In this document: positions 2,585 through 19,428 of the stretch, piece by piece
How positions within the stretch are numbered: the first letter of the stretch is position 1
How the letters are laid out: each line of letters starts with the position of its first letter
Virus record (IMG/VR): IMGVR_UViG_3300038755_000021
Coordinates: 1-64,000 of that record
From: an uncultured virus (IMG/VR IMGVR_UViG_3300038755_000021)
Lineage: Duplodnaviria; Heunggongvirae; Uroviricota; Caudoviricetes
DNA length: 64,000 bases
Strand: one strand, 5' to 3'
Translations under genes and position numbers: made by a program
The notes under the pieces: generated by a model
The model's database searches: none
Seen by the model: only the letters and a program-made list of their open reading frames with translations
What the model was told of the DNA's origin: nothing

Positions 2585-3649
2585 TTAAGTTGTAAATAAT
2601 TTCCAATTGTACTCCAAAGTTTTTGGAATTCCCTTTGGTCTGTGAAATTTTGCTGCATCTATTACGTTTGTAAAAGAAGGGCAAGAATCAATAAGATATG
2701 TTTGTCCTGTTGATGCACAAGACTCTTCTAACCATGCATATGGCACGTCAGTGTTCCCTTTAGAATCTACTAAAAAGGAATACTTTTCTTTAGTTTTGTA
2801 ATACTTAAGAGTTTCTTCTTTACCATTGTCATGCTTAATTGTTTGCTGATCTATTAAATTAGCATTCAGAAATTTCAGTAACCCTTTATTTCCTTCATTT
2901 TCTTTGATAAGAGTTATGATACCACCTCTTATATCTTCATTTTCTTCATTGTTGAAATCATCAAAAGTAAGAGTTTTACTGAAATATTTATCAAATACCC
3001 ATTCTGGTATTGCTCTACCATTCAGGAAGTGATATTTTTTATCAGGATAGACAATTGCTCCTTCATTGGTTGTACAATGAAGAAAATTATCATTTCTGTT
3101 TATTTTCATTGGCATTCTAAGTACCAGGCACACTTTTTCACAAAAGAATGCTTTTGCAATGTTAGCCTTATTTACTTTTTCATAAAGCCAATCCAATATC
3201 TCTGCTTTTGATGTTTCCAATTTGAATTCATCTTTGATGAATTTATACCACATCAAATATACTCTTGAGTATTCACTAGCTATAAATAGATAATGATACT
3301 GTACTGCTATCATATTAGTAATTGTTGGAGTAGTTACTTTCAATAACTTTTTATTTAATTTAACTCCATTGTTTTTTACATCATATAAATGTTCAATTTT
3401 AGCATCATATGCTGTTGAATTAAATATTTGATTGTAATACTCTTTGTATTGTTCTATTGAATTAGCAATTACAATTACTGGTTTTTTTTCTCCAGCCAGT
3501 TCATATATTTTTTCAATATACTCTACTGTATTTTTCCGTTTCCAAGAAGCATACTCCTTTCCGGAGTATAAATCTTTTATTGCTCTATCTTGATAGATAG
3601 AAATTTTACTTTTAATTTCTTCTGTGAAATCGTTAGTTGTTTTTTTCAT
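2585..3649 (-). CDS. DUF6745-like protein
   Basis: LHC..EGAIVYPD...FLNGRAIPEWV, NEENEDIR and CASTGQTY motifs recognised by eye. Confidence 0.6.
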   Translation of the reverse strand: MKKTTNDFTEEIKSKISIYQDRAIKDLYSGKEYASWKRKNTVEYIEKIYELAGEKKPVIVIANSIEQYKEYYNQIFNSTAYDAKIEHLYDVKNNGVKLNKKLLKVTTPTITNMIAVQYHYLFIASEYSRVYLMWYKFIKDEFKLETSKAEILDWLYEKVNKANIAKAFFCEKVCLVLRMPMKINRNDNFLHCTTNEGAIVYPDKKYHFLNGRAIPEWVFDKYFSKTLTFDDFNNEENEDIRGGIITLIKENEGNKGLLKFLNANLIDQQTIKHDNGKEETLKYYKTKEKYSFLVDSKGNTDVPYAWLEESCASTGQTYLIDSCPSFTNVIDAAKFHRPKGIPKTLEYNWKLFTT

Positions 3650-4752: not shown

Positions 4753-4845
4753 TTAATTTAATTTATCATATAATTTATTATATAATTGAACATCTAATTC
4801 ATTACTTAATTCAATACTTAATTGATTATCTAATTCATTAAATGA
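4753..4845 (-). pseudogene. Headless tetrapeptide-repeat ORF remnant
   Basis: SFNELDNQLSIELSNELDVQLYNKLYDKLN*; no start codon; in frame directly after the stop of 4846..5187. Confidence 0.55.
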
Positions 4846-5187
4846 TTAATTGTTTTTTACAATATTAACTTCAATAAAGCTCCCATTTTTTAATTGGGCT
4901 TTTTCCCAGTTATTAGTTTTATACTTGGCTTTTACACCAAGTTTTCTTAATATATCTTCAGTAATACAGTTACTATAAGTAACTATTTCAGCACCCTCAA
5001 AAGGCTTTTTGCTAAATATAGCTCCCCAACTTATTACACTACCAATATATTTTCTTGTTATTTTACCTCCATTAAGGAAATATTTTAATGATCCTTTATT
5101 AGGTGATAACGTTGGTAACAAGGCTATTCCTGTTAGAGTATGGTGCCCAATAACACCAGATCTCTTAATGTAAATTTTGTGATTCAT
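4846..5187 (-). CDS. Hypothetical protein
   Basis: 113 aa ORF with an A-rich leader. Confidence 0.7.
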   Translation of the reverse strand: MNHKIYIKRSGVIGHHTLTGIALLPTLSPNKGSLKYFLNGGKITRKYIGSVISWGAIFSKKPFEGAEIVTYSNCITEDILRKLGVKAKYKTNNWEKAQLKNGSFIEVNIVKNN

Positions 5188-5269
5188 ATTAAATAATTTA
5201 AATTGTTAAACTTTATAGAGTGTATATTAATGTATAAGATTAATTTCACCTATTTAATAAATTGTAAAT

Positions 5270-5292
5270 TAACACTCCTTATATATAGTATA
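5270..5292 (-). repeat. TAACACTCCTTATATATAGTATA motif (identical copy at 6344-6366; related copies at 6255-6270 and inverted at 5370-5387)
   Basis: Direct sequence identity. Confidence 0.85.
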
Positions 5293-5541
5293 TCATTTTT
5301 AGTAAGCAGTAATCAGATATCTTCAAGTTAACTAATTAACTGTATCCACAAAACCTACTAAAACATTACCTATATAAAGGAGTGTTAATTAACAATCCTA
5401 AATATATGAAAACAAAATAAATGTTCAAAATAACTTTGTTTCTTATTACCAACCCCCTTATTACAATTGTAATATATGTAAAACTGCATAGAGTACAAAG
5501 TGAAAAACTCCCCCTCAGTTTATTTACAGGTAACATTATTA

Positions 5542-5711
5542 CCCTCTGCACTCAGTTTTAATGACAGACTCAATAACTTAGAGTTTCTTGGACTTATTTA
5601 TTTCAAAAAGTATCCTACTGTCTACTTTAGGTGTTATAACCTAATATTACTATGAATTTCTCATAGTTCAATTACAACTGCTCATCCTTGGGAAATGAGA
5701 ATGGTGCATTA
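5542..5711 (-). ncRNA. Twister-ribozyme-like RNA, copy 1, with a large branched P5 insertion
   Basis: UAA-UGCA-CC-AUU-CUCAU-U-UCCC-AA-GG-AUGAG-[stem]-AG-UGCA-GA-GGG. Confidence 0.55.
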
Positions 5712-5738
5712 CTTTAGCTATAGTAATGTTATTTATTT

Positions 5739-5797
5739 AAAAAAATGGTATAGCACTTACCAGCAAATTACTGTTGGTTTTATAGTACTATACCATT
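5739..5797 (-). terminator. Long hairpin / intrinsic terminator
   Basis: AATGGTATAG...CTATACCATT stem with a minus-strand U-tract. Confidence 0.6.
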
Positions 5798-5850
5798 ATA
5801 TTAATGGTCTGAATAACAATAATATATATATATATGTTATTCAGAGATTT

Positions 5851-5906
5851 TCTAAGCAACCGTAACCTACTTAGATTTACTTAACTTGGTGATCACGGCT
5901 ATCACC
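5851..5906 (-). ncRNA. Two hairpins with complementary loops
   Basis: GGUGAU/AUCACC and UCUAAG/CUUAGA stems; loops CCGUG and UACGG can pair. Confidence 0.4.
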
Positions 5907-5980
5907 TAACGCTAGAAGCCTTGAACCTAGGTACCAGGTATGCAAGCTGACTTGTGGCTTACAATTTCTTTTTTTATAAC

Positions 5981-6057
5981 TAAATAACTGTACCAACATG
6001 CATACTCAACCAATATTCCCATGGAATTATTGTATACACATTGATACAGATTATTTA
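5981..6057 (-). ncRNA. Repeated hairpin with CAAUAA...GAG internal motif (other copies 6427-6463, 6470-6538)
   Basis: CUGUAUCA/UGGUACAG stem conserved; inner stems differ in sequence but still pair. Confidence 0.55.
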
Positions 6058-6060
6058 GAT

Positions 6061-6182
6061 TAATTGCAATAGTCTTCTTGAGAGAATAAATAGTAAGTTC
6101 TCACCTTACCTAAATGTCAGGATTAGATATTATCACCTGATTCTGGCTTTCATTTATACCAGCATTTAAACTATTACAATTA
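6061..6182 (-). ncRNA. Multi-stem RNA with a three-way junction and an H-type pseudoknot
   Basis: 13-bp closing stem; UAAAUG/CAUUUA, CUGG/CCAG, UCAGG/CCUGA; GGUAAG/CUUACU crossing GAGAA/UUCUC. Confidence 0.55.
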
Positions 6183-6184
6183 TT

Positions 6185-6255
6185 TCACTCTGCACTCAAT
6201 TGTAATACATGTGGTTACAATTGCTTACCCTTGTGAAGTAAGTTATGGTGCATTA
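6185..6255 (-). ncRNA. Twister-ribozyme-like RNA, copy 2 (compact)
   Basis: UAA-UGCA-CC-AUAA-CUUAC-U-UCAC-AA-GG-GUAAG-CAAUUGUAA..UUACAAUUG-AG-UGCA-GA-GUGA. Confidence 0.6.
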
Positions 6256-6276
6256 CACTCCTTATATATATAATCA

Positions 6277-6316
6277 AAAAAGATCTGGATCAACAATAAA
6301 TGCCAATCCAAACCTT
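6277..6316 (-). terminator. Intrinsic terminator (homologous to 6549-6587)
   Basis: GGUUUGGAUUGGCA...UGUUGAUCCAGAUC-UUUUU. Confidence 0.65.
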
Positions 6317-6548
6317 AACTAATTCATTATCTAACTTATTATGTAACACTCCTTATATATAGTATACATTTATCTTTTATAGACTAAATGTCAGGTTAAA
6401 CCTGACAAAATGACTATAAACAGTAAATCTGCATACTCTATATTAGGCTTTATTGATACAGATACCCAGTAAACTGTACCAATACACACACTCATCTAGA
6501 ATACTCTAGCTTATTGTGCATGTAATGATACAGATTAAATGTAATTAT

Positions 6549-6587
6549 AAAAAAAGTCTGGACCAACAAAGTTGGCTAGCCCAACCT
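6549..6587 (-). terminator. Intrinsic terminator
   Basis: GGUUGGGCUAGC...GUUGGUCCAGACU-UUUUUU. Confidence 0.6.
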
Positions 6588-6607
6588 CATCAATCCAGGC
6601 TTATGTT

Positions 6608-6763
6608 TCAAATATTGTAGGCTACTACTGCTAGTAGCCATATAGCAACCAGAAATCCCATTACCCATTTTATCATGGGTGTTTCTTGGAATTCCAATTT
6701 AACTATCTCTCTTGTGCCAAATAGGCACAAGGGCATGATGAAATATAAAGTAAATGCTATCAT
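6608..6763 (-). CDS. Small two-TM protein, paralog of 3770..3919 (not in track)
   Basis: MIAFTLYFIMPLCLFGTREIVKLEFQETPMIKWVMGFLVAIWLLAVVAYNI. Confidence 0.7.
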   Translation of the reverse strand: MIAFTLYFIMPLCLFGTREIVKLEFQETPMIKWVMGFLVAIWLLAVVAYNI

Positions 6764-6783
6764 TGCTTATTTTTAAAGGTTAG

Positions 6784-6824
6784 AAAAAAGACTTAACACT
6801 ATCAATGACAATAGTGTTAAGTCT
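6784..6824 (-). terminator. Intrinsic terminator
   Basis: Perfect 14-bp stem AGACTTAACACTAT/ATAGTGTTAAGTCT plus U-tract. Confidence 0.8.
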
Positions 6825-6836
6825 GTTAAAAGGGGT

Positions 6837-7019
6837 TTAATCCCCTATGTTTCTTAGCGCAGCCTTTGGGACTGCGATTTCAGCTCCCTCAGTGAGGGTT
6901 TTGAACATTTCTTCTGTGCACTGAGCAAGACGGTTAATTACCCATCCACCCTCGGTGGACTGGAGTGTTAACCAGAACTTGCCGGATTCTGAAACAGATT
7001 TCTTAATTACTTTATACAT
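6837..7019 (-). CDS. Small hypothetical protein, first gene of the leftward block
   Basis: MYKVIKKSVSESGKFWLTLQ...; the track's upstream extension crosses a non-coding-looking repeat. Confidence 0.65.
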   Translation of the reverse strand: MYKVIKKSVSESGKFWLTLQSTEGGWVINRLAQCTEEMFKTLTEGAEIAVPKAALRNIGD

Positions 7020-7085
7020 TTCATTTAGTTTAGAGCACGGGGAGACATTTCCCGTGCCAATGATTAAAGGGGGTGTGGGTGTGCC

Positions 7086-7207
7086 GACTACTAACAAACA
7101 ATAACATTTATCACTTTTATATATATAATAATGGCGGGGGTAATTATAATGACTATTAACAAACAATAACAATTTTGTACTTTGATATATATATAGTAGT
7201 AGGGGGG
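7086..7207. repeat. Imperfect tandem duplication (65-bp spacing) ending in G-runs
   Basis: GACTAyTAACAAACAATAACA...ACTTT.ATATATATA.TA.T...GGGGG at 7086-7140 and 7151-7207. Confidence 0.85.
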
Positions 7208-7713
7208 CTATTTATACCCATTTACACCCCAATCTCTGTATAAACCAACCCAATATAATATAGTTATGGGGTACAGACCCTATATTTATTCCTCTATATC
7301 CACACTTTTAGCTATAGTTTTGCGGATTTATTTTACTATTTTTTCATTAATTACTTGTACACTAGAAACTAATATACTATTTTTACACCAATTATTTCTC
7401 AGCGGAGTTTATACTCCCCAATCCATTACCCCCAGTTTCAAGTTGAAAAACAGAATTTGTAAGGACTTTGATGGATGATGTGATATAATCTTAGTCTCCC
7501 TACCTAATGGTCAGTAAAGGGACATTGAAAACCAGGAATCTAAGTTTTATTTAAAATATGATTTCTAGGTGTTGCTGGGCAACTTAAAACAACTGCTAAG
7601 AGAAGGAACATATAGGAATAAGGACATAAAAAAGTGATGCGCTGAATCTCCAGCGTTAAATTTCTTTTGCCATTTTTTAAGATAACTATTATTTAATCTT
7701 CTAAATATTAGGG

Positions 7714-15022: not shown

Positions 15023-18000
15023 AACCTGTAAGGTTATTTCCAGAGCTATATAGCATTTCTGATTTTATAAATAAAGAATATCCAATACTGCATCCAGATA
15101 CTGTTGAGTATGCTGAATATTGGAAACAAGAAGAAATTTTCTGTCTAGAGGGCAAGTGGGGACATGACTATTTAGACAATAAGGGAGGGTGGCGTTTTTG
15201 CCCACCTTCCCTTTACTTTTATGTCAACTACTGCATTATTCTAGATGAAGATGAGAAAGGAAAGAGTATTGATATTATACATCCTTTATTGAGAGATATA
15301 GAATGGATAATAAGTTATGGATATTTAACATGTCAAGGATTTTCAGGATTTGAAAATGATGAGGAATATACATGTAATAGATTAGTTGATAAATTAGAAA
15401 AAGGAATTGAACTTTCTCCAAAAGAACTTATAAATTTAAAATCCTCTGATCATATTTTAAAAAAAGATGGGACATATAAAAAATATATAGAGAGTAGAGA
15501 ATACTTATATAAAACTTTTAGTGAACCTCTTGGTAAACCCATATATGAAAATGATTTAAAAAATCTGTTTATATTAGGATCAAGATCAACGGGGAAAGAT
15601 TTAGAAGAAAATACAATTGTATATACTGAAACAGGAGAATGTAAAATTAAAGATGTTAATATAGGGGATAAAATATACGGTAAAGATGGTAAATTAACAA
15701 ATATTACAAATAAGTTTAATTTTAATGATCAACTTCAATATAAAATTGAATTACAAGATGGTAGAGAAATTGAATGTGGTGGTGGACATTTATGGAATGT
15801 AAGAAGTCCTGGAACTAGTAGTAAATTTAAAACATTAACTACTGAGTTTCTATATAATAATATAAATAAAAGAATACGCACAGATAAGATTAATCATAAA
15901 AATGAATCCTATTGGTTTATACCAAATAATAATCCAATAGAATATGATGAAAAAGAATTACCAATAGATCCATATCTATTAGGATTATGGTTAGGAGATG
16001 GTTCCAAAAATAGAGTTTCTATCACGAGTGCAGATTCTGAAATAGTAAATTATATCTATGAAGTTGCAAAACATTATAATCATAAGGTAACTTTAAATTT
16101 TAATAAATATAAAACGTGCCCAACATATCATATAACAGAAGGACGTGGTAAGCATGATCGAGAACTTGTTAATGAATTTAAAAAGTTAAATTTATTAAAT
16201 AACAAGCACATACCAGATATATATTTAAAATCATCTATAAATCAAAGAATAGAATTACTGAAAGGTTTAATGGATAGTGATGGTAACAGTAACATAGGAA
16301 CTAATAATTGTGAATTTTCAAACTCTAATAAAAGAGTAATTGATGATTTTGAAAAATTAGTTAGAAGTTTAGCTATATCATGTAAGATAAAAAGTAAAAT
16401 TCCTACTTTTAAATATAAAGAAAAATTAAAATATGGAAAAATATCATATAGAGTATATTTAAGACCAGAGTTTTGTCCATTTAAATTACAGAGAAAAGTA
16501 GATTCATATGTTTATGATAGTTCTAAACATAAAACAAAGAATTGTATTGGTATTAAATCTATAACCCCTACTACTATAAAACCATCTGTATGTATATCAG
16601 TAGATAATAAAGACAATTTATTTATAGCAGGGAACTATATTGTTACACATAATAGTTTTATAATTTCTGGTATAATGGCCCATTGTTATAATTTCTATAA
16701 CAAAAAATATTATGATGATAAATATTTAATATCTCCAGCACCTGCAGAGATATTAGTTGGTGCAGCTCAATCAGCAAAGTCAGCTGAATTAGTAAAGAAA
16801 TTTCTAAACATACAAGAATATTTAAAGACCAATCCTGGGTCTTTTGGAAAAGGTAAAGATTTTATTCCAGGTTATTTTTATAATAACTCAATGGGTAAGT
16901 CTTCTCCTAACAACGTTGACTCTCCTTATAGACACGAGTACAAAGTACAAGAGGGTAGGATATGGGTTAATAAAGGTACTGGTACAAAATTATTACATGT
17001 AGCTTATGGTGATAACCCAGAAGCTGCCGTTGGTTATAGACCTAATTTATTAATAATAGAAGAAATCGGATTATGTTCTAATTTATTACAAATACATTCT
17101 TGTTATGGGGAAGATACAAAAATAAGAATGCTTGATACTTCGTTAAAAAATGTTCAAGATATAAAAATAGGGGATAAAATATTAGGACACGATGGTACAG
17201 AAAGAAATGTTAAAAATACATTTTCAGGAATTGACCAACTATATAAAATAAAACAAAGAGGGGGGATTGACTATGTATGTAATAGTTTACATAATGTGAG
17301 ATATTTTCAAAAATGGGGAAAAAATGCAACAATATCTAACGGGGAGCATGTAAAAACAGCAGAAGAAATATACAATTTCTCTAAAACAAGAAAGCGCAAC
17401 ATATATGGATTAAAATCAGGACCTTTGAATTTTTCTAAAAAGAATTTATTGCTTGACCCATATTATTTAGGTTTATACATTGGAGATGGGGTTATTAGAA
17501 GTGGGGGTATTGTAATACAAAATTCTGAAAAGACAAAATTGTTGTCTGAATGGGTAATAAATTATTTTAAATCATTAGATTTGAAAACACATTTAGATTT
17601 ACGTCCAAATTGCCCACTATATAGACCTACAACAGGTAAATTTACCGGAGGATATAATAGAAATTATATAGTTGCAACTTTAAGAAATTATAATATTCTT
17701 AATAAAAAAGAAATACCAACTGATTTCTTAATGTCTACTGAAGAAGATAGGTTGAAATTATTAGCAGGAATAATTGATAGTGATGGAACCTTTTGTAAAA
17801 GACATGGGGGAAGAAATTATGTAATATCTGTTTCTGGAAGAGAACACTTATCAGATCAAATTAGATTTTTAGCACAATCTTTAGGATTTAAAGTTAGTTA
17901 TTGTAAACATTTCTCTGAAGAAAAAAAATACAAAACTAGAGAAATAATAACAATTAGTGGAGATATAGAAAGAATACCTGTATTATTACCTCATAAAAAA

Positions 18001-19428
18001 TGTAATTTTAAAAATTCACATTATTCTACTATAACATGCGGATTAAAAATAGAAAAATTAAATGTTGGTAAATATTATGGTTTTACTTTAGAAGAAGATA
18101 GTAGATTTTTAGGAGAAGATAATACTGTATTGGAAAACTCTAATGAATTAGCACTTATTAGGAGAAATAGAACTGGGATATCAATATATCTAGGAACATC
18201 TGGAGATATGGATAAAATAGTAGAATCTAAAATTTTATTTGAAGATCCAGACTCATATGATTTTTTATCTTATACAGATATTTGGGAACACAGATCTAAA
18301 CCAATAGGATTATTTATTCCAGCTTATTATGCGGATACATCTTTTAAAGATGATAAGGGTAACACAGATTTAGAATTAGCATTTCAACAAGAATTAATAA
18401 ATAGGAAAAAGAAAGAACAAGCTTCTTCTTCAGCAGCTTTAGATGGTTATATGATGTCAAGACCATTGGTTCCTTCAGAAATGTTTTTATCATCTACAGC
18501 TAATCTTTTTCCTTCAGCTAAATTAAGACAAAGAGAAGCTGAAATAGAAACTAGAAATTTATTTGATTTATATGCTTCTATAGGAGATTTAGAATGGGCA
18601 GATACTGAAAAGAAATCTGTTAAGTGGAAAGAAGATTTAACATCTAGTAGAACTCATAGAGTTATACAGACAATGAATCTTGATCAATATAAACATAATA
18701 TTAATGGAGTAATAGTTATATATGAACATCCTCCTGCATTAATTCCTAATCCTACTTATAGAAAATCATTATATAAAGTTGTATATGACCCTGTAAAAGA
18801 TGACAATGGTGGAACATCATTAGCATCTGTAATTGTATACAAAGGTTTATCAGAGAATTGGAATGCTGGTATACAAGATGGCATAGTAGCTGAATATATA
18901 GGAAGATATGATAAAGTAGATGATATGCATGATTTAGTATTAAAGATTGCTCACTACTATAATGCAACAGTTTTAGTTGAAAATAACATTCCTGGATTTA
19001 TAAATTATTGTAAGATAAATGGGTATGTACATAAGTTACAAATATCTCCTTATGAAGCAATATCAAAAGGAATGGTTACATTTTCTAGAAAATATGAGTA
19101 TGGAGTAACAATGTCAAAACAATTAAATACTCATTGTGAGCAATTAATAAGACAATGGTTATTAGAACCTTGGAAAAAAGAAGATGATAAACTTCTTTTA
19201 AATTTAGATAAAATTTATTCTCTAAGGATAATTAGAGAGTTAATAACATATGAAAGAGATAAAAACTTTGACCACGTTTCTTCTCTTAAGCTTTTAGTTT
19301 TATGGTTATCTCAAGAAAGAGATATAACATTTAAAGAAGAAGATATTCAAAATAAACAATATGATGATCTAAATAAGTACTTTAAAAAAGTAATTACCCC
19401 CACACAAAAAAATCCCTGGTTTTTATGA
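15019..19428 (+). CDS. terL: Terminase large subunit with two inteins
   Basis: Walker A GSRSTGK|S, Walker B LLIIEE, coupling motif GTSG, nuclease YDP/ENN/NFD motifs; frame open from 15004, probable ATA start at 15019. Confidence 0.9.
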   Translation: MKPVRLFPELYSISDFINKEYPILHPDTVEYAEYWKQEEIFCLEGKWGHDYLDNKGGWRFCPPSLYFYVNYCIILDEDEKGKSIDIIHPLLRDIEWIISYGYLTCQGFSGFENDEEYTCNRLVDKLEKGIELSPKELINLKSSDHILKKDGTYKKYIESREYLYKTFSEPLGKPIYENDLKNLFILGSRSTGKDLEENTIVYTETGECKIKDVNIGDKIYGKDGKLTNITNKFNFNDQLQYKIELQDGREIECGGGHLWNVRSPGTSSKFKTLTTEFLYNNINKRIRTDKINHKNESYWFIPNNNPIEYDEKELPIDPYLLGLWLGDGSKNRVSITSADSEIVNYIYEVAKHYNHKVTLNFNKYKTCPTYHITEGRGKHDRELVNEFKKLNLLNNKHIPDIYLKSSINQRIELLKGLMDSDGNSNIGTNNCEFSNSNKRVIDDFEKLVRSLAISCKIKSKIPTFKYKEKLKYGKISYRVYLRPEFCPFKLQRKVDSYVYDSSKHKTKNCIGIKSITPTTIKPSVCISVDNKDNLFIAGNYIVTHNSFIISGIMAHCYNFYNKKYYDDKYLISPAPAEILVGAAQSAKSAELVKKFLNIQEYLKTNPGSFGKGKDFIPGYFYNNSMGKSSPNNVDSPYRHEYKVQEGRIWVNKGTGTKLLHVAYGDNPEAAVGYRPNLLIIEEIGLCSNLLQIHSCYGEDTKIRMLDTSLKNVQDIKIGDKILGHDGTERNVKNTFSGIDQLYKIKQRGGIDYVCNSLHNVRYFQKWGKNATISNGEHVKTAEEIYNFSKTRKRNIYGLKSGPLNFSKKNLLLDPYYLGLYIGDGVIRSGGIVIQNSEKTKLLSEWVINYFKSLDLKTHLDLRPNCPLYRPTTGKFTGGYNRNYIVATLRNYNILNKKEIPTDFLMSTEEDRLKLLAGIIDSDGTFCKRHGGRNYVISVSGREHLSDQIRFLAQSLGFKVSYCKHFSEEKKYKTREIITISGDIERIPVLLPHKKCNFKNSHYSTITCGLKIEKLNVGKYYGFTLEEDSRFLGEDNTVLENSNELALIRRNRTGISIYLGTSGDMDKIVESKILFEDPDSYDFLSYTDIWEHRSKPIGLFIPAYYADTSFKDDKGNTDLELAFQQELINRKKKEQASSSAALDGYMMSRPLVPSEMFLSSTANLFPSAKLRQREAEIETRNLFDLYASIGDLEWADTEKKSVKWKEDLTSSRTHRVIQTMNLDQYKHNINGVIVIYEHPPALIPNPTYRKSLYKVVYDPVKDDNGGTSLASVIVYKGLSENWNAGIQDGIVAEYIGRYDKVDDMHDLVLKIAHYYNATVLVENNIPGFINYCKINGYVHKLQISPYEAISKGMVTFSRKYEYGVTMSKQLNTHCEQLIRQWLLEPWKKEDDKLLLNLDKIYSLRIIRELITYERDKNFDHVSSLKLLVLWLSQERDITFKEEDIQNKQYDDLNKYFKKVITPTQKNPWFL
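15598..16653 (+). mobile_element. Class 3-type intein with LAGLIDADG endonuclease, in TerL Walker A (352 aa)
   Basis: Starts DLEENT; has HLW, VCISV and VTHN|S; LGLWLGDG and LKGLMDSDG. Confidence 0.9.
17101..18138 (+). mobile_element. Class 1 intein with LAGLIDADG endonuclease, after TerL Walker B (346 aa)
   Basis: Starts CYGEDT; YYGFTL; ends VLEN|S; LGLYIGDG and LAGIIDSDG. Confidence 0.9.

What the first reader, a model, noticed from the sequence alone, without database searches (positions are those of the whole stretch)
5542..5711. Twister-like RNA carrying a ~100-nt branched domain in its P5 arm
Seen: the same core as 6185-6255, but the CAGUUGUAAU/AUUAAAACUG stem encloses sub-hairpins (ACUAUGA/UCAUAGU, UUAGGU/ACCUAA, GACAG/CUGUC, ACUC/GAGU). 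Inference: a ribozyme scaffold displaying a cargo or allosteric domain.
Basis: partly seen in the sequence, partly recalled or inferred. Interest (0 to 1): 0.75.

Follow-up and report, generated by a model that had tools for sequence, protein, structure and literature searches.

The report
Phage twister-type RNA, variable P5 arm
This stretch of an uncultivated crAss-like phage is a real copy of a large, uncatalogued family of RNAs built like the self-cutting twister ribozyme, and its big extra arm is the family's usual, freely exchangeable add-on rather than a special switch.

Summary
On the minus strand, 5711-5542 (copy A) and 6255-6186 (copy B) share a twister-like core, and copy A's P5 stem encloses a 108-nt interior.

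It is not an oddity. The core defines a family of more than 119 viral contigs. On 98 copies, P2, P4, the P5 base and pseudoknot T1 all show compensatory changes: 91.0% of cells pair against 77.9% in shuffles, with 0 of 500 shuffles reaching the covariation score.

Rfam's twister models miss every copy. The family differs from canonical twister in T2 (CC/GG), a 9-nt L4, a variable P4 closing pair and a weak P1.

P5 length runs from 27 to 164 nt. Copy A (128) is ordinary and copy B (27) is the shortest. Interiors are mostly unique but self-folding. They travel with the core as one module. Collinear relatives carry 72 or 238 extra letters at copy B's P5 tip.

Self-cleavage is inferred, not shown. 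Verdict: a new variant of a known kind. The cargo/allosteric reading is only partly supported.

The parts
5542..5711 (-). Copy A of the twister-type RNA, from U-1 (5711) to the last G of T1' (5542); predicted scissile bond between 5711 and 5710
   Evidence: Covariance model R1 gives 75.1 bits, E 6.9e-21. The fold reproduces all helices. The unit is identical but for one base in two metagenome contigs.
5704..5708 (-). Copy A, P2 5' strand UGCAC. The last C (5704) pairs with G5551, or alternatively with L4 G5686 as T2.
   Evidence: P2 is 97.3% paired, with double changes at all 5 pairs.
5547..5551 (-). Copy A, P2 3' strand GUGCA
5681..5699 (-). Copy A, P4 hairpin: CUCAU 5699-5695, loop L4 UUCCCAAGG 5694-5686, AUGAG 5685-5681. 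L4 CCC (5692-5690) forms T1; L4 GG (5687-5686) is the candidate T2 strand.
   Evidence: P4 is 98.9% paired, with 2-5 pair types at each position.
5542..5546 (-). Copy A, 3' strand of L1: G5546 (in the position of twister's catalytic guanine), A5545, and GGG 5544-5542 (T1 partner of L4 CCC)
   Evidence: T1 is 97.7% paired, with compensatory changes at all three pairs. T1 was not part of the model.
5553..5680 (-). Copy A, whole P5 arm (128 nt). The conserved 10-bp base is 5680-5671 with 5562-5553 and has a G5675.A5558 mismatch.
   Evidence: The P5 base is 94.2% paired family-wide. The mismatch is flagged by the model. Relatives L459 and L460 have C at that place.
5563..5670 (-). Copy A, P5 interior (108 nt): four hairpins at 5667-5649, 5644-5627, 5615-5590, and 5584-5568, the last two closed by GACAG/CUGUC (5622-5618 with 5567-5563)
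   Evidence: Folds. z -1.83 against interior-only shuffles. No similar interior among 78 members.
5531..5538 (-). 3' strand of a distal helix that pairs with 5731-5724. It may stand in for the missing adjacent P1 of copy A.
   Evidence: Seen in the minimum-free-energy and centroid folds only. No comparative support.
5724..5731 (-). 5' strand of that distal helix
6186..6255 (-). Copy B, compact. U/A at 6255/6254; P2 6252-6248 with 6195-6191; L4 UUCACAAGG 6237-6229; P5 of only 27 nt; G-A 6190-6189; T1' GUG 6188-6186. No adjacent P1.
   Evidence: R1 gives 73.5 bits, E 2.2e-20. It has the shortest P5 of 80 members. Collinear relatives have 72 or 238 letters in place of its P5 tip.
6255..6268 (-). 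14-nt motif TATATAAGGAGTGT whose last base is U-1 of copy B. Exact copies also lie at 5272-5285 and 6346-6359, minus strand.
   Evidence: Three exact copies, all in this gap. The function is unknown; promoter-like is my inference.
6280..6316 (-). Terminator-like hairpin with a T run, just upstream of the motif and of copy B
   Evidence: 11 terminator-like sites in 4800-7300 against 1.0 expected.

Best explanation
Copy A, and copy B 544 nt upstream on the same RNA strand, are members of a large family of twister-type self-cleaving ribozymes found so far only in uncultivated phage contigs, including crAss-like ones.

How it most likely works:
- As the leftward (minus-strand) transcript is made, P2 and P4 form.
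- Loop L4 reaches back to the 3' strand of the internal loop through the three base pairs of T1, and probably docks its two G's on the CC after P2 (T2).
- This places G5546 and A5710 at the U5711/A5710 bond, which is then cut. The upstream RNA is left with a cyclic phosphate, and the downstream RNA begins with a 5'-OH followed by the whole folded ribozyme.
- P5 leaves the core between P4 and P2 and points away from it. Only its first 10 or so base pairs are constrained, and anything that folds on itself can sit beyond them.

The 108-nt branched interior of copy A is such a passenger. It is inherited with its core as one module and is exchangeable by recombination in the conserved core and P5 base. 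It is not a ligand-sensing switch.

The two cuts would release defined pieces from the 1.4-kb gene-free leader and uncouple the fates of the upstream and downstream messages.

Shown: the family, its helices and T1, the variability and modularity of P5. Inferred: catalysis, the cleavage site, the biological role.
For: Family:
- 84 of the 121 matches in 118 viral contigs to a 16-base 5'-core pattern carry UAA just upstream and GUGCAGAG(G/U)G 25-190 nt downstream. Comparable 16-base patterns give about 100 chance hits in coding DNA.

Structure, on 98 copies (92 distinct rows):
- 91.0% of cells pair, against 77.9% in shuffles and 28-48% when partners are slid.
- The covariation score is 0.374 against 0.146, reached by 0 of 500 shuffles.
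- Per helix: P2 97.3%, P4 98.9%, P5 base 94.2%, T1 97.7%. T1 has double changes at each of its 3 pairs (UCC/GGA, CAC/GUG, CCA/UGG) and was not part of the model.

Twister-like layout, compared with the description in PMC5408937 (passages): U-A-A before P2, G-A before T1', and an L4 of U + 3 T1 bases + A-A + 2 bases.

Context typical of self-cleaving ribozymes (PMC10085705 and PMC6765202, passages):
- 16 of 80 loci hold 2-3 copies, all on one strand.
- 2 of 40 loci hold a Hatchet ribozyme (78-79 bits) on the same strand.
- 13 of 60 loci hold tRNAs, all on the ribozyme's strand.
- A GOLLD RNA ends about 10 nt before the U/A site in L099 and L120.

P5:
- Lengths run from 27 to 164 nt.
- Interiors are mostly unique but fold better than shuffles: mean z -1.55 over 70 members, 6% above 0.
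- Copy A's full-length fold keeps the core.
- Copy A's unit is identical but for one base in L459 and L460, where the upstream flank is unrelated.
- In all 16 pairs of members that share an interior, similarity starts within 9 nt of the ribozyme's start. In 14 of the 16 it ends within 15 nt of its end.
- Two collinear relatives carry 72 and 238 other letters at copy B's P5 tip.
Against: - No Rfam twister model matches either window copy or 18 relatives, even at E up to 10.
- T2 is CC/GG, not the conserved GC/GC. On the 98 copies it shows only one-sided changes (C to U giving U.G), and its first C covaries strictly with the base before P2' (C.G 81, U.A 5), which suits a fifth P2 pair as well.
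- L4 has 9 nt, not 8, and the P4 closing pair is not the invariant G-C.
- P1 is weak: 64.7% paired, and 15 of 80 members have no adjacent pair. Copy A has one G.U pair and copy B none.
- Copy A has a G.A mismatch in the conserved P5 base that its closest relatives lack.
- Thermodynamic z-scores of the window copies are not significant.
- No RNA ends could be examined. The one RNA run is kept as contigs and covers only 6009-6176.
- Some ribozyme-neighbourhood motifs did not cleave when tested by others (PMC6765202).
- The alignment for the nested helices was fitted to the model, which favours them.
Confidence: 0.6

Rival explanations
1. One reading: the ribozyme is a scaffold and the P5 interior is functional cargo. 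It would be a small RNA, decoy, protein-binding or ligand-sensing domain that is displayed, or is released with a defined 5' end by the cut. Different copies would carry different cargoes, which phages swap.
For: - Interiors fold better than chance as a population (mean z -1.55 over 70 members).
- Copy A's interior is among the 4 of 70 with four hairpins.
- The core plus interior is kept at 99% identity in L459 and L460 while the upstream flank is unalignable.
- Seven small groups of members share interiors at 77-93% identity with unrelated flanks.
- The P5 base is more conserved in sequence than pairing alone requires.
Against: - No motif is shared across interiors, and about 60 of 78 are unique.
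- Lengths run from 27 to 164 nt, and the compact copy B lacks an interior altogether.
- There is no complementarity to the rest of the window beyond chance: the longest match is 14 nt, reached or exceeded by 48 of 200 shuffles.
- There is no match in deposited phages.
- Self-folding is what any tolerated insert needs in order not to disturb the core.
- Module-like conservation can also come from recent exchange.
Confidence: 0.15
2. The family is a conserved pseudoknotted RNA that does not cut itself. It could be a protein-binding or transcript-stabilising element that merely resembles twister.
For: - It fails every Rfam twister model.
- It departs from twister's conserved T2 dinucleotides, L4 length and P4 closing pair, and it often lacks P1.
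- Other motifs found beside ribozymes did not cleave in published tests (PMC6765202, passages).
Against: - The unpaired bases that are kept are those that build twister's active site: A after the U, G-A before T1', and A-A in L4.
- P1 is dispensable for twister cleavage in vitro (PMC5408937).
- The tandem same-strand arrays, Hatchet neighbours, and positions right after a GOLLD RNA or right before a tRNA are places where a cut makes sense.
Confidence: 0.2
3. The resemblance and the sub-hairpins are chance features of AT-rich non-coding DNA.
For: Fold z-scores for the window copies alone are weak. AT-rich DNA gives many hairpins, for example the weak miRNA-model hits nearby.
Against: More than 119 contigs carry the core. 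Covariation exceeds all 500 shuffles and all slid controls. The model scores both copies at E about 1e-20.
Confidence: 0.02

Closest known systems
Twister self-cleaving ribozyme, type P1 with optional P5 (Rfam RF03160; class of Roth et al. 2014, known to me through the reviews PMC5408937 and PMC6765202; the original paper is not held)
   Same: The order of elements is the same: P1, U-A-A, P2, L2, P4 with L4, P5, P2', G-A, T1', P1'. There is a three-pair pseudoknot T1 between L4 and the 3' strand of L1. L4 is built as U, three T1 bases, A-A, then two bases. A two-base contact between L4 and the bases after P2 is possible. P5 is a dispensable peripheral arm. It occurs in phage DNA beside other ribozymes.
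   Different: It is not found by the Rfam models. T2 would be CC/GG instead of the conserved GC/GC. L4 has one extra U. The P4 closing pair varies instead of being G-C. P2 appears to have a fifth pair. P1 is weak or absent. The first ten pairs of P5 are strongly conserved in sequence, and the arm beyond them is usually 30-150 nt long. Cleavage is untested.
Twister-sister ribozyme (structure paper PMC5660989, passages)
   Same: Both have a P4 loop with U...A-A and two extruded bases that dock on P2/L1. In twister-sister one extruded G forms a base triple with a G-C pair of P2. Here the second L4 G changes to A only in members where the pair C.G next to P2 has become U.A (2 of the 7 such members seen; no member that keeps C.G has an A there), which a triple would also explain.
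   Different: Twister-sister has no Watson-Crick T1, and it cuts at C-A on the 3' strand of L1. Its conserved L1 bases are absent here. This family has a fully covarying T1 and the U-A-A / G-A loop of twister.
Self-cleaving ribozymes between phage and bacterial genes (hammerhead, type-P5 twister, pistol, hatchet), proposed to process polycistronic RNAs (PMC6765202)
   Same: Same-strand arrays in gene-poor stretches of phage genomes, with other ribozyme classes nearby (Hatchet in L342 and L347).
   Different: In those cases no role for a long, exchangeable arm has been described in what I read. Here the arm and core move together as a module.

Membership tests
Twister ribozyme (Rfam twister-P1 RF03160 / Twister-P5 RF02684) | Match to the curated covariance model at its gathering score | tested here: not met
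   No hit in the window at gathering score. No hit at E up to 10 on 2 kb or on copy B alone. No hit on 18 relatives at E up to 1. No hit with Infernal on the whole 72-kb record at E up to 10.
Twister ribozyme | Essential stems P2 and P4 supported by covariation | tested here: met
   P2 is 97.3% paired and P4 98.9%, with double changes at every pair. Both stems form in copy A's minimum-free-energy fold.
Twister ribozyme | Pseudoknot T1: three Watson-Crick pairs between L4 and the 3' strand of L1 | tested here: met
   97.7% paired, with compensatory changes at all three pairs. T1 is not part of the model, so the count is unbiased. The window has CCC/GGG in copy A and CAC/GUG in copy B.
Twister ribozyme | Pseudoknot T2 formed by the conserved GC of L2 with two bulged L4 bases | tested here: inconclusive
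   The bases are CC and GG, not GC and GC. Pairing is possible in 98.9% of cells, but only one-sided changes occur on the 98 copies. Two members (L173, L211) have UC with GA. The first C also covaries with the base before P2'.
Twister ribozyme | P4 extended by an essentially invariant G-C pair and a U.A pair enclosing four L4 bases (an 8-nt loop) | tested here: not met
   The closing pair is C-G in 65, A-U in 14, U-A in 5, U-G in 2 and G-C in 1. The loop is 9 nt (UUCNCAAGG), with one extra U.
Twister ribozyme | Scissile U-A step with a highly conserved A, and a guanine in the 3' strand of L1 | tested here: met
   The sequence is present in both window copies. U precedes AA in 78 of 80 members. 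The AA and the GAG were required by my pattern, but they are also seen in nearly all model-found rows. One copy, L398, has A for the G. Chemistry was not tested.
Twister ribozyme | Phylogenetically conserved stem P1 next to the cleavage site | tested here: not met
   Family-wide, 64.7% of cells pair and the mean run is 2.46 against 1.22 in controls. Copy A has 1 pair (G.U) and copy B has none. P1 is dispensable for cleavage in vitro (PMC5408937).
Twister ribozyme | Site-specific self-cleavage | not testable with these tools
   Only contigs of one RNA run were available, and they do not cover the sites.
Twister-sister ribozyme | No Watson-Crick T1; C-A cleavage step on the 3' strand of L1; conserved L1 bases; SL4 with a three-base GNRA-like tip | tested here: not met
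   T1 covaries here. The L1 strands are UAA and GA, and L4 differs from the sequence described in PMC5660989. There is no Rfam hit.

The most novel reading that the evidence does not exclude
The unit 'twister-type core plus P5 interior' is a mobile RNA module. Phages exchange whole units, and P5 interiors alone, by recombination in the invariant core and P5 base. Each interior is a distinct passenger RNA that self-cleavage delivers with a fixed 5'-OH end and a built-in structured cap. In parallel, the core itself may be a structural intermediate between twister and twister-sister, combining a Watson-Crick T1 with an L4 purine that reads a P2 pair as a base triple.
Probability: 0.15. Interest if true: 0.8.

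Novelty: new variant of a known kind. Interest (0 to 1): 0.5.

Why it matters
If these RNAs cut themselves, they form a large branch of the twister class that the standard catalogue cannot see. It is present in more than a hundred uncultivated phage contigs and in no deposited phage record, so counts of phage ribozymes are too low.

The family also offers natural experiments on what twister tolerates: a different T2, a longer L4, no P1, and arms from 27 to more than 160 nt.

The module-like inheritance of core plus arm, and its position beside GOLLD RNAs, tRNAs and Hatchet ribozymes, makes the old question of what ribozymes do in phages testable in one system.

For this particular finding the message is sobering. 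The large insert is ordinary for the family, and nothing points to a switch.

Tried and rejected
- Rfam at gathering score and at permissive thresholds found no twister, twister-sister or other ribozyme at the site. The weak miRNA, snoRNA and sRNA hits nearby are AT-rich hairpins far below their cut-offs.
- Thermodynamic significance of the window copies alone was not reached.
- Scans for members with a changed T2 or P2 base returned almost only chance hits in coding DNA. 0 of 17 S4 hits were real, and a handful of S2 hits were real.
- The RNA run X20 gave one 178-nt contig on 6009-6176 only. Contigs break at repeats such as the ribozyme core, so its ends say nothing about cleavage or expression.
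- The X7 joint 5561 to 5676, with 42 other letters, touches only 21 and 36 nt of conserved core, and its flank differs. It may be another family member rather than an allele of copy A, so I do not use it.
- I looked for an antisense or decoy target of the insert within the window and found none beyond chance.
- The insert alone and a canonical member both gave no match in 50,697 deposited phage records. The 1.5-kb gap gave none either.
- Earlier notes of this scan had nothing for this genome or this sequence.
- A small ORF reading (the AUG inside UAAUGCACC, 12-13 codons) was rejected. The peptides differ between the two copies and the positions covary as RNA pairs.
- The alignment used the wrong strand and was redone.
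- The Parabacteroides and Acidobacteriota genome hits to the pattern are not confirmed by the model.
- Literature searches for this subfamily found no description. Roth et al. 2014 and its supplements could not be read, so prior mention there or in unpublished alignments cannot be excluded.

Full report
**What is there**

The window is part of a 72-kb uncultivated phage record. It carries terminase, portal and major head genes. Its head protein is 30% identical to those of Flavobacterium phage FpV4 and other crAss-like phages. Genes at 1-10 kb run leftward.

Between the small ORFs ending at 6608 and starting at 5187 lies a 1.4-kb stretch without ORFs of note. Read on the minus strand, 5711-5542 (copy A) and 6255-6186 (copy B) share this core:
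- U-A-A, then UGCAC.
- C-A-U plus one or two bases.
- A 5-bp hairpin with the loop UUC-N-CAAGG.
- A stem starting CA(G/A)UUGUAA.
- A, then GUGCA, G-A, and G-N'-G.

In copy A the last-named stem (P5) encloses 108 further bases. In copy B it encloses 7.

**Check of the observation**

The unconstrained minimum-free-energy folds of 5530-5735 and of the arm alone recover P2, P4, P5 and the four sub-hairpins.

Stability is not significantly better than shuffled sequence: z -1.39, -1.27, and -0.53 for copy B. So the case rests on comparison.

**A large family**

- 84 of the 121 have UAA directly upstream and GUGCAGAG(G/U)G 25-190 nt downstream.
- The rest, like nearly all hits to three control-like patterns of similar information, lie in coding DNA and are chance.
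- A 19-base pattern again hit the limit of 119.
- A covariance model built from 22 short-armed members scores the window copies at 75.1 and 73.5 bits and finds nothing else credible in the window.
- The model finds 98 copies in 80 wide-flank loci.

**Structure**

On those 98 copies (92 distinct rows):
- 91.0% of cells form standard pairs, against 77.9% in column shuffles and 28-48% when partners are slid.
- The covariation score of 0.374 is reached by 0 of 500 shuffles.

| Helix | Cells paired | Note |
|---|---|---|
| P2 | 97.3% | Double changes |
| P4 | 98.9% | Double changes |
| First ten pairs of P5 | 94.2% | Double changes |
| T1 | 97.7% | Compensatory changes at each of its three pairs |
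| P1 | 64.7% | Weak |

T1 joins L4 to the three bases after G-A. A covariance model cannot encode it, so its count is unbiased. The compensatory variants are UCC/GGA, CAC/GUG and CCA/UGG. The nested helices were fitted to the model, which favours them. An independent regex-based count on 80 unique members gave the same picture.

For P1, the mean contiguous run is 2.46 against 1.22 in mismatched-partner controls, and 15 of 80 members have no adjacent pair. Copy A has a single G.U pair and copy B has none. Copy A's fold offers a distal helix, 5731-5724 with 5538-5531, instead, but nothing comparative supports it.

**Comparison with twister**

By the description in the review PMC5408937 (passages), twister has:
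- P1, P2 and P4.
- Optional P3 and P5.
- T1 of three pairs between L4 and L1.
- T2 between a conserved GC in L2 and two bulged L4 bases.
- An invariant G-C pair and a U.A pair extending P4.
- A U-A scissile step.
- An active-site guanine.

Here the order of elements, T1, the U-A-A and G-A loop strands and the U...A-A frame of L4 agree. The following differ:
- The T2 bases are CC and GG.
- L4 has an extra U.
- The P4 closing pair varies.
- P1 is weak.

The first C after P2 covaries strictly with the base before P2' (C.G 81, U.A 5, U.G 2). So P2 may have five pairs and T2 one, or the base may alternate between partners.

The second L4 G becomes A only in members where that pair is U.A (L173 and L211). 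This is what T2 pairing predicts. It is also what a purine base triple would predict, like the one twister-sister makes with its extruded G (PMC5660989).

Rfam's twister-P1, twister-P5 and twister-sister models find none of the copies. So I do not file it as a member by the catalogue's test. I read it as a variant that works like twister.

**The P5 arm**

- Across 80 unique members P5 is 27-164 nt, with a median near 86. Copy B is the shortest, and copy A at 128 nt lies in the top fifth.
- Beyond the conserved base, about 60 of 78 interiors match no other member, and copy A's matches none.
- As a population the arms fold better than arms with shuffled interiors: mean z -1.55 over 70 members, 30% below -2 and 6% above 0. 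Copy A has z -1.83 and is one of four with four hairpins.
- The insert has no complementarity elsewhere in the window beyond chance and no match in deposited phages.

The arm nevertheless behaves as part of a unit:
- Two metagenome contigs (L459, L460) carry copy A's core plus interior, identical but for one base. They have the canonical C where the window has A5558, which makes the window's G.A mismatch. Their upstream flank is unalignable, and an extra block of roughly 130-150 nt follows the ribozyme before homology resumes.
- In 16 pairwise comparisons of members that share an interior, similarity of 77-93% starts within 9 nt of the ribozyme's first base. In 14 of them it ends within 15 nt of the last base, and the 280-nt flanks are otherwise unrelated.
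- Long contigs from two wastewater or activated-sludge runs are collinear with the window on both sides of copy B. They carry 72 and 238 other letters in place of its 5-9-nt P5 tip.

So P5 is a place where sequence is gained, lost and exchanged while the core stays fixed.

**Context and likely role**

- 16 of 80 loci hold two or three copies, always on one strand.
- 2 of 40 loci hold a bona fide Hatchet ribozyme about 1 kb upstream on the same strand.
- 13 of 60 loci hold tRNAs, all on the ribozyme's strand. Eleven include tRNA-Arg(UCU), and in 12 loci all the tRNAs lie downstream.
- In L379 an Rfam tRNA match abuts the ribozyme's 3' end.
- In L099 and L120 a GOLLD RNA ends about 10 nt before the U/A site.

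Published work used exactly this kind of shared neighbourhood to predict that twister is a ribozyme. It suggests, without proof, that such ribozymes process polycistronic RNAs (PMC6765202 and PMC10085705, passages).

In the window both copies lie in the leader of the leftward genes, among terminator-like hairpins (11 found against 1.0 expected). There are also three exact copies of a 14-nt motif, one of which ends on the U of copy B's U/A step. I infer two things:
- Cutting at 6255/6254 and 5711/5710 releases a 544-nt piece.
- The downstream message is left starting with a 5'-OH and the folded ribozyme.

None of this is shown.

**Novelty**

Five literature searches found no description of this subfamily. 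The original twister paper and its supplements were not available. No deposited phage record holds the family.

Earlier agents of this scan met the same family in other phages and reached similar readings. My counts are independent of theirs.

The finding is therefore a further copy of an uncatalogued variant of a known class.

**Verdict**

The twister-like reading is well supported structurally but untested chemically (confidence 0.6). The cargo/allosteric idea is only partly supported.

Noticed in passing
window 5272-5285, 6255-6268, 6346-6359 (minus strand): An exact 14-nt motif TATATAAGGAGTGT occurs three times, only in this gene-free gap. One copy ends on U-1 of copy B. A relative (run X6) lacks the 91 nt between two of the copies, as if recombined between them. 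It may be a phage promoter or a processing signal.
   Followed up: partly
window 4800-7300, e.g. minus 6824-6789, 6598-6558, 6316-6280: Terminator-like hairpins with T runs are about ten-fold enriched (11 against 1.0 expected), so the leftward leader seems to be cut into several transcription units.
   Followed up: no
L099:1-286 and L120:1-289, next to the ribozymes at 290-423 and 290-469: The 3' two-thirds of a GOLLD RNA (Rfam RF02032, 66-70 bits, cut by the locus end) stops about 10 nt before the U/A site of a family member with the CAC/GUG form of T1. The ribozyme would define the 3' end of the giant RNA.
   Followed up: partly
L342:1903-2035 and L347:1773-1939: Hatchet ribozymes (78-79 bits, above the cut-off of 51) lie about 1 kb upstream of twister-type copies on the same strand.
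   Followed up: no
L121, L152, L185, L203, L215 (model scores 27-40 bits): These relatives keep L4, P5 and the 3' half but have a long stem (UGAUUA.../...UAAUCA, enclosing 40-70 nt) just before L4 and a shared AAGAUGU(G/A)AAAC motif upstream. It may be a P3-bearing or rearranged form. I could not resolve its P2 and P4.
   Followed up: partly
L379:2838-2919 next to the ribozyme at 2918-3035 (minus strand): An Rfam tRNA match (47 bits, missed by ARAGORN) directly abuts the 3' end of a family member, so that copy would be a tRNA leader.
   Followed up: no
L398:2881-3034: This otherwise good copy (75 bits) has A in place of the G that corresponds to twister's active-site guanine. It may be an inactive copy or a natural test of that base.
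   Followed up: no
window 5961-6153: The spacer between the two ribozymes is much more variable among collinear relatives (27 substitutions and 14 gaps in run X5) than the ribozyme cores. It holds long AT-rich hairpins that weakly hit a miRNA model (5974-6060; also 6353-6443 and 6460-6546). The only RNA-run contig lies here, at 6009-6176.
   Followed up: no
window 15289-19428 (+): A 1379-aa ORF matches large-terminase families at residues 84-470 and again at 960-1364, leaving about 500 residues between them without a terminase match. This could be an inserted domain or an intein.
   Followed up: no
L461 and L462 (genome contigs): Model-confirmed family members (65 and 86 bits) lie on 118-kb and 59-kb contigs binned as Chitinophagaceae and Sediminibacterium. 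This is a weak hint at Chitinophagales hosts, or phage contigs binned with them.
   Followed up: partly
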